Origin: an uncultured Clostridia bacterium
GTDB taxonomy: Bacteria > Bacillota > Clostridia > Christensenellales > UBA1242
Direction: 5' to 3'
NCBI GenBank assembly: GCA_944380265.1
Contig: CALWGY010000002.1
Location: 3,556-67,555 of the forward strand
Length of the DNA stretch: 64,000 bases
Of the stretch, positions 12,738-12,944 are shown piece after piece. A program made the translations under genes and the position numbers. The notes beneath the pieces are model-generated. The model was given only the letters and a program-made list of their open reading frames with translations, made no database searches and was not told the origin of the DNA. The first letter of the stretch is position 1. Every line of letters starts with the position of its first letter.

Positions 12738-12944
12738 ATGAAAATATTAGAATTAAGAAAACAAAAAAAATTAACACAACAAAACATAGCTGATTTTTTA
12801 GGAATTTCTCAAAGGGCATATGCAAATTATGAAAATAACAAAAATGAACCCAATATAACAACATTAATAAAATTAGCAAATTATTATAATGTGTCATTAG
12901 ATTATTTGTTAGAAAGAGATTTTCAAGGGGGATTCGAAACATAA
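12738..12944 (+). CDS. Xre-family HTH repressor, copy-1 allele (68 aa; 3' end created by the inter-copy junction)
   Basis: LTQQNIADFLGISQRAYANYENNKNEPNITTLIKLANYYNVSLDYLL is a classic Xre HTH. It is roughly half identical, by eye, to the 107-aa allele at 21311. It ends ..DFQGG-FET*, with the last codons coming from att-proximal DNA. Confidence 0.75.
   Translation: MKILELRKQKKLTQQNIADFLGISQRAYANYENNKNEPNITTLIKLANYYNVSLDYLLERDFQGGFET

What the first reader, a model, noticed from the sequence alone, without database searches (positions are those of the whole stretch)
12915..12940. The inter-copy junction is not an attP: the HTH gene is fused to att-proximal DNA across a GGGATT microhomology
If two complete phages had integrated sequentially, the middle junction should contain the 25-bp core. 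Instead the sequence reads agagattttcaagggGGATTcgaaacataacta.

Its left part equals the interior of the HTH gene (compare 21488..21507 in copy 2, where it continues atctaccgat). Its right part equals the DNA following the attL core (4367 onward). Only gggattcgaa of the core remains.

As a result, copy 1 lacks the HTH C-terminal extension, the integrase and the P arm.

There are two readings:
- A deletion between GGGATT in the HTH gene and GGGATT in a former middle att site.
- A naturally integrase-less 8,562-nt genome that entered a resident int+ prophage by a single homologous crossover in the 8-kb shared backbone.

Either way, copy 1 cannot be excised on its own by site-specific recombination.
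Basis: partly seen in the sequence, partly recalled or inferred. Interest (0 to 1): 0.7.

Follow-up and report, generated by a model that had tools for sequence, protein, structure and literature searches.

The report
Integrase-deleted phage beside its intact relative
The odd junction is real: it is the scar of a 1.6-kb deletion that removed the integrase and most of the attachment site from a small rolling-circle phage, a familiar kind of "escaped" variant whose tandem placement in this metagenome scaffold cannot be verified.

Summary
attL and attR carry a 25-bp core at the 3' end of tRNA-Ser. The inter-copy junction keeps only GGGATTCGAA. A 68-aa HTH gene is fused to the P' arm across GGGATT.

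The two "copies" are not duplicates. 8,033 bp are identical, but the last 535 bp of copy 1 carry a different immunity cassette (HTH 58% identical).

Related contigs largely settle the origin:
- An int+ phage with the copy-1 cassette, a 107-aa HTH, an integrase and the same attP exists. It is 99.84% identical to copy 1 right up to GGGATT. Copy 1 is therefore a 1,595-bp deletion derivative.
- The same junction and 68-aa gene occur in another sample on a closed 9.7-kb circular contig without integrase, in a different backbone. The deleted form therefore circulates on its own and the junction is not a chimeric join.

The right endpoint lies at the T-stem/T-loop boundary of the core, the predicted integrase crossover point.

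The element has a circovirus-type Rep and a TAGTATTAC origin. A real tandem could therefore release the deleted genome by origin-to-origin replication.

A zero-mismatch 8-kb repeat in a metagenome scaffold cannot be told apart from an assembler loop. This is an ordinary kind of event, nicely documented.

The parts
4352..4376 (+). attL: complete 25-bp core (displaced copy of the tRNA-Ser 3' end), followed by the phage P' arm
   Evidence: Exact repeat of 23072-23096; the only two full copies in the window.
4367..12928 (-). Copy 1: 8,562-nt integrase-less unit (A-type immunity, deletion derivative). Most of its genes are on the minus strand.
   Evidence: Offset 8,562. Positions 4367-12399 are identical to 12929-20961. 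It is 99.84% identical to int+ phage L018 up to GGGATT. It has no int, no P arm and no HTH C-terminus.
12400..12934 (.). A-type immunity-like cassette, diverged from 20962-21507: N-terminal part of the 87-aa ORF (12340-12603, minus), intergenic control region, and the 68-aa HTH gene
   Evidence: Identity with copy 2 breaks abruptly at 12400. These 535-540 nt are invariant in all A-type contigs from several studies.
12738..12944 (+). Truncated HTH (XRE/cI-type) repressor-like gene, 68 aa. It keeps the whole HTH_3 domain and ends ...RDFQGG-FET*, with the last codons and the stop read from att/P' DNA.
   Evidence: Pfam HTH_3, E 2e-19, residues 3-57. Full-length 107-aa alleles P0002/P0003 are identical through ...RDFQGG. 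The N-domain resembles ImmR and P22 C2.
12929..12938 (+). Junction. GGGATT (12929-12934) is the microhomology shared by the HTH gene and the att core. GGGATTCGAA is the only remnant of the core: 3 nt of T-stem plus the 7-nt T-loop ATTCGAA.
   Evidence: The T-loop assignment comes from the tRNA sequence. The identical junction is present in L002.
12929..23096 (-). Copy 2: complete B-type int+ prophage (about 10.16 kb), ending in attR
   Evidence: Single-copy versions sit at the same host locus in other samples (L004, L006).
21311..21634 (+). Full-length 107-aa HTH gene of copy 2 (B allele). It contains the same agagattttcaagggggatt at 21488-21507.
   Evidence: It is 58% identical to the full-length A allele.
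21671..22993 (+). Tyrosine integrase (longest ORF 440 aa)
   Evidence: Pfam Phage_integrase, E 8e-17.
22994..23071 (+). P arm of the att site (absent from copy 1)
   Evidence: The same arm is joined to core plus P' arm in L040, a genuine attP or complete middle junction.
23072..23096 (+). attR: complete 25-bp core
23074..23161 (-). tRNA-Ser(tga), the integration target. The core spans the T-loop to the 3' end.
   Evidence: ARAGORN; Rfam tRNA; sequence.
15657..16631 (-). Rep: HUH endonuclease plus SF3 helicase of CRESS-DNA-virus type (copy 1 equivalent at 7095-8069)
   Evidence: Pfam Viral_Rep and RNA_helicase. Matches PCV2 Rep 7lar, E 9e-20.
16722..16761 (-). Rolling-circle origin: 15-bp perfect stem and a 10-nt loop holding TAGTATTAC, followed by GTAACAT iterons (copy 1 equivalent at 8160-8199)
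   Evidence: z = -7.4. The 40-nt element is invariant in 19 related loci.
17424..18269 (-). Zot-like (pI-family) morphogenesis ATPase (copy 1 equivalent at 8862-9707)
   Evidence: PHROG Zot-like, E 1e-6. Profile hit to 2r2a. The model's best fold matches are the Zot N-domain and Inoviridae Zot.

Best explanation
Copy 1 is an integrase-less deletion derivative of a temperate, rolling-circle (inovirus-like) phage of "A" immunity type.

How the junction arose: the parent carries a 107-aa HTH repressor-like gene, a tyrosine integrase and an attP with the same 25-bp tRNA-Ser core. One 1,595-bp deletion joined GGGATT inside the HTH gene to GGGATT inside the attP core. It removed the HTH C-terminal extension, int, the P arm and 15 of the 25 core bases.

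What the product is: it keeps Rep, the TAGTATTAC origin, the morphogenesis genes and a complete HTH DNA-binding domain. It is therefore an autonomous circular replicon that no longer needs, or can perform, site-specific integration. It circulates as such.

How it sits in this scaffold: it lies upstream of a complete int+ prophage of "B" immunity type that shares an identical 8-kb backbone. There are two possibilities:
- The circle entered the resident prophage by one homologous crossover. A cointegrate of this kind could be reversed by homologous loop-out. Rep could also copy it out from the origin in copy 2 to the origin in copy 1, which yields exactly the 8,562-nt genome.
- The assembler threaded a co-resident circle through the collapsed backbone.

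Shown: the junction, the int+ parent, and the independent circular form. Inferred: the mode of entry, heteroimmunity, and the deletion mechanism. For the mechanism, an integrase-promoted attP x secondary-site event and microhomology slippage are about equally likely.
For: The junction and repeat structure were verified.

Parent form:
- P0002 and P0003 (107 aa) are identical to the 68-aa protein through ...RDFQGG.
- They lie on contigs carrying the 87-aa ORF, HTH107, Int427, the P arm, the 25-bp core and the tRNA (L013, L018).
- L018 is 99.841% identical to copy 1 over 8,162 nt, ending at GGGATT. The deletion is 1,595 bp.

Independent existence of the deleted form:
- L002 (Logan SRR30170042) has a 30-nt terminal overlap, and Rep is intact across the closure.
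- It has no int, no P arm and no HTH C-terminus, and carries the identical junction.
- L002's flanks belong to other haplotypes. The left flank is 99.70% identical to int+ L019. The right flank is 98% identical to L041 but only 91% to the window.

Deletion endpoint:
- The core's right end is the tRNA T-loop, ATTCGAA, so the deletion endpoint GGG|ATT sits at the T-stem/T-loop boundary.
- 33 alternative 6-mer microhomologies, including five 8-mers, were available in the dispensable intervals, yet this pair was used.

Other support:
- The replicon is autonomous: CRESS-type Rep plus an origin in both copies.
- Single-copy B-type and A-type prophages occupy the same tRNA-Ser in other samples.
- A complete attP or middle junction exists in L040.
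- The backbone haplotype is 100% identical in unrelated samples, so identity between the incoming and the resident backbone is biologically plausible.
Against: - The tandem arrangement is seen in only one sample, as an ENA scaffold of 189,271 bp and an NCBI copy of 189,315 bp. Its 8,033-bp, 0-mismatch repeat cannot be resolved by short reads, so chromosomal linkage of copy 1 is unproven.
- A closed cycle in a de Bruijn assembly (L002) could also come from a tandem array of deleted units rather than a free circle.
- The 68-aa allele is rare: two samples, against dozens with the 107-aa alleles.
- The analogous deletion on the more common B allele is absent from a 15-billion-protein collection. 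This argues against a general hot spot. It leaves open one origin followed by recombination versus recurrence.
- The putative secondary site in the HTH gene resembles the core only weakly (GGG plus ATT).
Confidence: 0.7

Rival explanations
1. In-situ deletion in a true tandem double lysogen. An A-type int+ phage and a B-type int+ phage integrated one after the other at tRNA-Ser, giving attL-A-(complete middle att)-B-attR. A later deletion between GGGATT in HTH-A and GGGATT in the middle core then removed HTH-C, intA and the P arm. Free circles such as L002 would be secondary products.
For: Both immunity types use the same 25-bp core and the same tRNA. An int-P arm-core-P' arm adjacency exists (L040). 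The predicted product is identical to the window.
Against: The same junction occurs on a closed circular contig with no linked int+ copy. Its backbone differs by 4-9% on both flanks. The junction therefore predates, or is independent of, this particular array. There is no evidence that the array is physically real.
Confidence: 0.15
2. The tandem is an assembly product. The host carries one B-type prophage, and the deleted A-type genome is a separate circle in the same or other cells. The shared backbone collapsed into one graph node, and the assembler walked the loop once, writing entry-backbone-immA-junction-backbone-immB-exit.
For: The source is a metagenome scaffold. There are exactly 0 mismatches in 8,033 bp, whereas the closest independent relatives differ by 13-16 sites. 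The graph topology of a real tandem and of prophage plus circle is identical. The circle form is documented elsewhere. No second, independent assembly shows the tandem.
Against: An 8-kb identity would also make real homologous cointegrates frequent. Some backbones are 100% identical across unrelated samples, so zero mismatches is not by itself artefactual. The assembler and read type are unknown.
Confidence: 0.4
3. The junction itself is a chimeric mis-join, or a chance similarity, with no biological counterpart.
For: Short microhomologies are typical of chimeric joins. The arrangement is found in a single sample.
Against: The same 31+ nt junction and the same 68-aa ORF were assembled independently from another run by another assembler (L002). 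The flanks match real int+ relatives up to the exact base.
Confidence: 0.03
4. Recurrent, integrase-promoted deletion. Int repeatedly recombines attP with a secondary site in the repressor gene, as in Int-promoted deletions of lambda. This generates integrase-less heteroimmune derivatives de novo in different lineages.
For: The endpoint lies at the predicted cleavage position of the core, the T-stem/T-loop boundary. The same endpoints occur in two backbones, each closest to a different int+ relative. The right flank switches haplotype from the first informative site, 47 nt after GGGATT. 33 other microhomologies went unused.
Against: The secondary site shares only GGG plus ATT with the core. 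No B-type counterpart exists in 15 billion proteins, although B carries the same GGGGGATT. The immunity cassette next to the junction is invariant across backbones, showing that recombination moves this block around. A single origin is therefore not excluded.
Confidence: 0.3

Closest known systems
Ralstonia filamentous phages phiRSS0 / phiRSS1 (Yamada 2013, PMC3816273)
   Same: An integrative filamentous phage and a naturally occurring shorter form. The shorter form lacks one contiguous block holding attP and (part of) an HTH repressor-like gene, and behaves as a free, "escaped" phage. The repressor reading frame is altered at the att site.
   Different: phiRSS0 uses host XerCD at dif and has no integrase; the missing block is 626 nt and removes the whole repressor. 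Here a phage tyrosine integrase and a tRNA-Ser attP are lost, and the HTH DNA-binding domain is kept. Superinfectivity is untested here.
CTXphi / RS1 tandem arrays of Vibrio cholerae (established knowledge; background in PMC8265649 and PMC3545932, listed)
   Same: Directly repeated, non-identical RCR units lie next to each other in the chromosome. Two identical origins in direct repeat allow Rep to start at one and end at the next, releasing a unit genome without excision. One unit lacks functions the other has.
   Different: CTXphi integrates through XerCD and cannot excise. Here the intact copy has a normal attL/attR and integrase. The defective unit lacks integration functions, not morphogenesis functions. 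The array's physical reality is unproven.
Int-promoted deletions of phage lambda with one endpoint at att (Parkinson and Huskey 1971; from memory, not checked here)
   Same: The deletion has one endpoint at the crossover point of attP and the other at a weakly similar secondary site in the same molecule.
   Different: Integrase dependence is not testable here. The similarity of the secondary site is minimal.
Inovirus-like genomes with CRESS-type Rep: ctbe30/ctbc27 (Tisza et al., bioRxiv 10.1101/555375) and bajarodino viruses (PQ006184, PQ006185)
   Same: Small circular genomes that combine a Zot-like ATPase with a circovirus-like HUH+SF3 Rep. They come from gut or faecal samples, and prophage relatives occur in Firmicutes.
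   Different: Rep is only about 35% identical and Zot about 31%. The window's element adds a tyrosine integrase, a tRNA-Ser attP and an exchangeable immunity cassette.
phiRSM1/3 integration at tRNA-Ser (PMC3816273)
   Same: A filamentous phage whose attP copies the 3' end of a tRNA-Ser gene (TGGCGGAGAG...) and lies next to a repressor-like gene.
   Different: phiRSM uses a small serine recombinase and a 13-nt core. Here the recombinase is a tyrosine integrase and the core is 25 nt, reaching the T-loop.

Membership tests
Tandem double lysogen made by two site-specific integrations | Complete att core (hybrid attP-like site) at the inter-copy junction | tested here: not met
   Only 10 of 25 core bases are present at 12929-12938. 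The full core occurs only at 4352 and 23072.
Tandem double lysogen made by two site-specific integrations | Each unit carries its own integrase and P arm | tested here: not met
   tblastn and blastn of int and the P arm against copy 1 give no hit.
Integration-module-deleted ("escaped") derivative of an integrative filamentous phage (phiRSS1-from-phiRSS0 type) | A parent form with an intact repressor gene plus the recombination module/attP exists and is collinear apart from one deletion | tested here: met
   L018 is 99.84% identical over 8,162 nt, then carries an extra 1,595 bp holding HTH-C, Int and the P arm.
Integration-module-deleted ("escaped") derivative of an integrative filamentous phage (phiRSS1-from-phiRSS0 type) | The derivative occurs as a free circular genome | tested here: inconclusive
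   L002 closes on itself (30-nt k-1 overlap, Rep intact across the closure). A tandem array of deleted units would give the same graph.
Integration-module-deleted ("escaped") derivative of an integrative filamentous phage (phiRSS1-from-phiRSS0 type) | The derivative superinfects lysogens or escapes immunity | not testable with these tools
   The only indirect evidence is a different HTH allele (58% identical) and different control DNA.
CTXphi-type array producing phage DNA by origin-to-origin rolling-circle replication | Two identical Rep-dependent origins in direct repeat, one unit length apart | tested here: met
   TAGTATTAC stem-loops lie at 8160-8199 and 16722-16761, both on the minus strand.
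CTXphi-type array producing phage DNA by origin-to-origin rolling-circle replication | The array is physically present in the chromosome | tested here: inconclusive
   It is seen in one metagenome scaffold only, as a 0-mismatch repeat.
CTXphi-type array producing phage DNA by origin-to-origin rolling-circle replication | XerCD/dif integration, irreversible | tested here: not met
   The element has its own tyrosine integrase and a tRNA-Ser att with a normal attL/attR.
Int-promoted attP x secondary-site deletion | One endpoint lies at the crossover segment of the att core | tested here: met
   The endpoint lies within GGG|ATT, at the T-stem/T-loop boundary. The core identity ends with the T-loop ATTCGAA. 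The crossover position is inferred from tRNA-site rules, not measured.
Int-promoted attP x secondary-site deletion | The secondary site resembles the core (half-sites plus overlap) | tested here: inconclusive
   By eye, only GGG and ATT are shared, about 3 of 7 in the left half-site and 3 of 7 in the overlap.
Int-promoted attP x secondary-site deletion | The event depends on the integrase | not testable with these tools
   This needs an experiment.
Inovirus-like phage with CRESS-type Rep (ctbe30 / bajarodino group) | HUH+SF3 Rep with a nonanucleotide stem-loop origin | tested here: met
Inovirus-like phage with CRESS-type Rep (ctbe30 / bajarodino group) | Zot/pI-type morphogenesis ATPase | tested here: met
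   PHROG, E 1e-6. Foldseek gives 2r2a at E 4e-8 and Inoviridae Zot. tblastn matches bajarodino Zot at 31% identity, E 1e-24. Pfam Zot itself is not hit.
Inovirus-like phage with CRESS-type Rep (ctbe30 / bajarodino group) | Major coat protein / filamentous virion | not tested
   No coat gene was identified. One fold hit was to a protein of Acholeplasma phage L2, so another virion type is not excluded.

The most novel reading that the evidence does not exclude
The junction marks a recurrent, integrase-catalysed self-deletion: attP recombines with a secondary site in the phage's own repressor gene. This converts a temperate CRESS-Rep inovirus into an integrase-less, heteroimmune, partly derepressed episome. 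The episome then parks in resident relatives by homologous recombination and is re-emitted by Rep-driven origin-to-origin replication. This would be a Gram-positive analogue of the CTXphi/RS1 lifestyle, arising repeatedly in gut bacteria.
Probability: 0.12. Interest if true: 0.6.

Novelty: new member of a known kind. Interest (0 to 1): 0.35.

Why it matters
It gives a base-resolved natural example of how a small temperate rolling-circle phage loses its integration module. Parent, product and scar are all recovered from metagenomes. The scar lies at the predicted integrase crossover point.

It also shows how such a derivative can coexist with, or sit inside, an intact heteroimmune relative.

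Practically, it is a warning. Zero-mismatch tandem prophages in metagenome scaffolds may be loop traversals of an episome. Prophage callers would then report a 19-kb "prophage" that is really two different genomes.

None of this overturns current understanding of filamentous-phage biology.

Tried and rejected
- Exact scans for the junction (31 nt and 21 nt) and for core10+P' arm (21 nt) found nothing in GTDB genomes, JGI metagenomes or IMG/VR. These collections lack this phage group; all relatives came from the ENA/Logan protein-to-contig index.
- A Rep-based scan of IMG/VR found no relative. Megablast of copy 2 against GenBank phages found nothing.
- Sample and run accessions do not appear in the paper library, so the assembler and read type remain unknown.
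- Looking up the hypothetical B-allele deletion product (…RDFQGGFET on HTH-B) showed it is not in the collection. This weakens the idea of a general hot spot.
- I looked for operator-like repeats in the two divergent control regions. There were too many AT-rich chance repeats to interpret.
- Pfam Zot is not matched by the ATPase. The assignment rests on PHROG, a PDB profile hit, fold matches and tblastn.
- I rejected a replicative head-to-tail dimer, because the two units differ in 535 bp.
- I rejected acquisition of int by copy 2, as opposed to loss by copy 1, because copy 1 retains tRNA-derived core bases.
- I rejected random microhomology as the full explanation for seeing the same junction twice. 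There were 33 alternative 6-mers and five 8-mers available. It remains possible for a single founding event.

Full report
**Observation**

The window holds a 25-bp direct repeat, TTTGGCGGAGAGTTAGGGATTCGAA, at 4352-4376 and 23072-23096. The second copy overlaps the 3' end of tRNA-Ser(tga), at 23074-23161 on the minus strand.

Between these sites lie two units at an offset of 8,562 nt. Positions 4367-12399 equal 12929-20961 with no mismatch over 8,033 bp.

The inter-unit junction reads ...agagattttcaagggGGATTcgaaacataacta....
- Only GGGATTCGAA of the core is present there.
- The left side equals 21488-21507 in the second HTH gene.
- The right side equals the DNA after the attL core.
- GGGATT (12929-12934) belongs to both.

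Unit 1 has no integrase, no P arm and no HTH C-terminal extension.

The units are not copies at their right ends. From 12400 in unit 1 and 20962 in unit 2 the sequences diverge abruptly.
- A small minus-strand ORF keeps its last 20 codons but has an unrelated N-terminus (87 versus 88 aa).
- The intergenic control DNA differs.
- The HTH proteins are 58% identical when the full-length forms are compared.
- The exact left-hand match at the junction is 20 nt, inside a 75-nt stretch of 81% identity.

The two units are therefore two immunity types, called A and B here, on one backbone.

**What the element is**

The genes are compact and mostly on the minus strand.
- **Rep:** one gene encodes a Rep with Viral_Rep and SF3-helicase domains. 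Its best solved relative is porcine circovirus 2 Rep, at E 9e-20.
- **Origin:** upstream of Rep is a 15-bp perfect stem with a 10-nt loop containing TAGTATTAC. It is followed by four GTAACAT iterons. The 40-nt element is invariant in 19 related loci.
- **ATPase:** a 281-aa P-loop protein is Zot-like. The evidence is a PHROG hit at E 1e-6, a profile hit to 2r2a, fold matches to the Zot N-domain and to Inoviridae Zot, and 31% identity to a bajarodino virus Zot.
- **Repressor-like gene:** the HTH N-domain resembles ImmR and P22 C2.
- **Integrase:** the integrase is a tyrosine recombinase.

Inovirus-like genomes with CRESS-type Rep are already described (Tisza et al.; bajarodino viruses). The host is an uncultured low-GC "Clostridiales" bacterium, and the window is part of a metagenome scaffold.

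**Origin of the junction**

The 68-aa protein has 107-aa relatives, P0002 and P0003, that are identical through ...RDFQGG and then continue LTTEEYELIS....

These lie on contigs with the A-type 87-aa ORF, a 427-aa integrase, the P arm, the same 25-bp core and the tRNA (L013, L018). L018 is 99.841% identical to unit 1 over 8,162 nt, and the alignment stops exactly at GGGATT.

Unit 1 is thus an A-type int+ phage minus 1,595 bp. Because unit 1 keeps ten tRNA-derived bases next to the P' arm, the event was a loss, not a gain by unit 2.

**Independent existence of the deleted form**

The exact 68-aa product is also encoded on L002, a 9,743-bp contig from another run and another assembler.
- Its ends overlap by 30 nt, which is k-1.
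- The Rep ORF reads through the closure.
- It has no integrase, no P arm and no HTH extension.
- It carries the identical junction.

This removes the "chimeric join" refutation. It also shows that an integrase-less genome with this scar exists as a closed cycle.

L002's backbone differs from the window's.
- Its left flank is 99.70% identical to an int+ A-type contig from the same study (L019), but 96% identical to the window.
- Its right flank belongs to another haplotype from the first informative site, 47 nt past GGGATT. It is 98% identical to L041 and 91% to the window.

Either the deletion happened more than once, or one deleted genome has since recombined very close to the scar. Two results weigh against a general hot spot:
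- The 540 nt left of the scar are invariant in all A-type contigs, so this block does move between backbones.
- The equivalent deletion on the commoner B allele is absent from 15 billion proteins.

**Mechanism of the deletion**

The tRNA sequence shows that the core runs from the T-loop (ATTCGAA on the plus strand) to the 3' end. For tRNA-targeting tyrosine integrases this arrangement places strand exchange in the T-loop. That rule is established knowledge, not tested here.

The deletion endpoint GGG|ATT is at the T-stem/T-loop boundary. The dispensable intervals offered 33 six-base and five eight-base microhomologies, so landing on this pair is suggestive of an integrase-promoted attP x secondary-site event. 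However, the secondary site shares only GGG and ATT with the core.

I rate integrase-promoted deletion and simple slippage as about equally likely for the founding event.

**How unit 1 came to lie beside unit 2**

Single A-type and B-type prophages occupy the same tRNA-Ser in other samples. A complete int-P arm-core-P' arm adjacency exists in L040.

One homologous crossover anywhere in the 8-kb shared backbone between a deleted A circle and a resident B prophage gives exactly the window's order. So does an in-situ deletion in an A/B double lysogen. So does an assembler walking once round a loop formed by a co-resident circle.

The 0-mismatch repeat is what a collapsed graph node yields by construction, whereas the nearest independent relative differs at 13-16 sites. 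However, this backbone is also 100% identical in unrelated samples. Without reads I cannot decide. I put the chance that the tandem is physically real at about one half.

**Consequences if the tandem is real**

attL x attR recombination would excise both units together. Unit 1 alone could leave in two ways:
- by homologous loop-out between the repeats;
- by Rep nicking the origin in unit 2 and terminating at the origin in unit 1. The nonanucleotide is on the minus strand, so synthesis runs towards lower coordinates and passes the junction.

Either route yields the 8,562-nt deleted genome, as in CTXphi/RS1 arrays. The truncated HTH keeps the DNA-binding domain but loses about 40 residues. In related repressors this region mediates multimerisation, so weaker repression is plausible, but it is untested.

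**Comparison and verdict**

The closest precedent is phiRSS1, a natural truncated form of the integrative filamentous phage phiRSS0 that lacks a block holding attP and a repressor gene. CTXphi/RS1 arrays and Int-promoted lambda deletions cover the other aspects.

This is a new member of a known kind: well documented, moderately interesting, and carrying an assembly caveat.

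Noticed in passing
window 15657-16631 (-), 16722-16761 (-); copy 1 at 7095-8069 and 8160-8199: The replication module is a textbook CRESS-DNA-virus type. 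Rep combines an HUH nuclease with an SF3 helicase (best PDB hit PCV2 Rep). The origin is a 15-bp stem-loop holding TAGTATTAC, followed by four GTAACAT iterons. This sits in a Zot-encoding, integrase-bearing prophage of a Firmicute. Similar hybrids are published (ctbe30/ctbc27, bajarodino viruses), so it is a new member rather than a new kind.
   Followed up: yes
window 16790-16822 (-) and about 16860-16990 (-): A GC-rich 11-bp hairpin (GCGGAACGGCA...TGCCGTTCCGC) lies just 5' of the origin stem-loop, and repeated ATGTGGTAA motifs lie further upstream. These could be a complementary-strand origin or packaging signal.
   Followed up: no
window 12340-12603 (-) vs 20902-21168 (-); L005/L009/L011: The small ORF divergent from the HTH gene comes in at least three forms (87, 88 and 71 aa). 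The 87- and 88-aa forms share their last 20 residues (LEDKITFSNVSIKFESFLVK) but have unrelated N-termini. The mosaic boundary is sharp at 12399/12400. The 71-aa form pairs with the B-type HTH, so the two halves of the immunity cassette reassort.
   Followed up: partly
window 3848-4408 (+): A 186-aa low-complexity ORF runs across a terminator-like hairpin and the attL core into phage DNA. Its last codons are att/P' sequence. In strains L006/L027 the corresponding ORF is 177 aa with a different end. It may be an integration-altered or spurious ORF.
   Followed up: no
window 682-3798 (+): A 1,038-aa protein with RE_NgoFVII/PLD nuclease, SNF2/ResIII helicase and DUF3427 domains (a defence-like nuclease-helicase) sits immediately upstream of the integration site.
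   Followed up: no
L035, L036, L037/L038/L041 (att-proximal ends): The same 25-bp core and P' arm are joined to at least three other left-hand contexts, one of them an AIPR / DNA-methylase / HATPase_c_3 island. The phage group therefore occupies tRNA-Ser in several host backgrounds or next to other islands.
   Followed up: partly
L040 (ONAT22-1_SAMEA6814443 scaffold_6756), locus about 1730-1830 on the reverse strand: An integrase - P arm - full 25-bp core - P' arm - 91-aa ORF adjacency is present. This is either a genuine attP of a free int+ circle or the complete middle junction of a true tandem. It is the contrast case to the window's scar.
   Followed up: partly
L008 (ONAT22-1_SAMEA6814452 scaffold_23207): This B-type prophage variant lacks about 410 bp relative to window 20703-21111 and has no 68/88-aa ORFs called in that interval. 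It is another deletion polymorphism beside the immunity region.
   Followed up: no
window 50501-50700 (-): A T-box leader scores above the Rfam gathering threshold (105 bits). It is ordinary host regulation and consistent with a Firmicute host.
   Followed up: no
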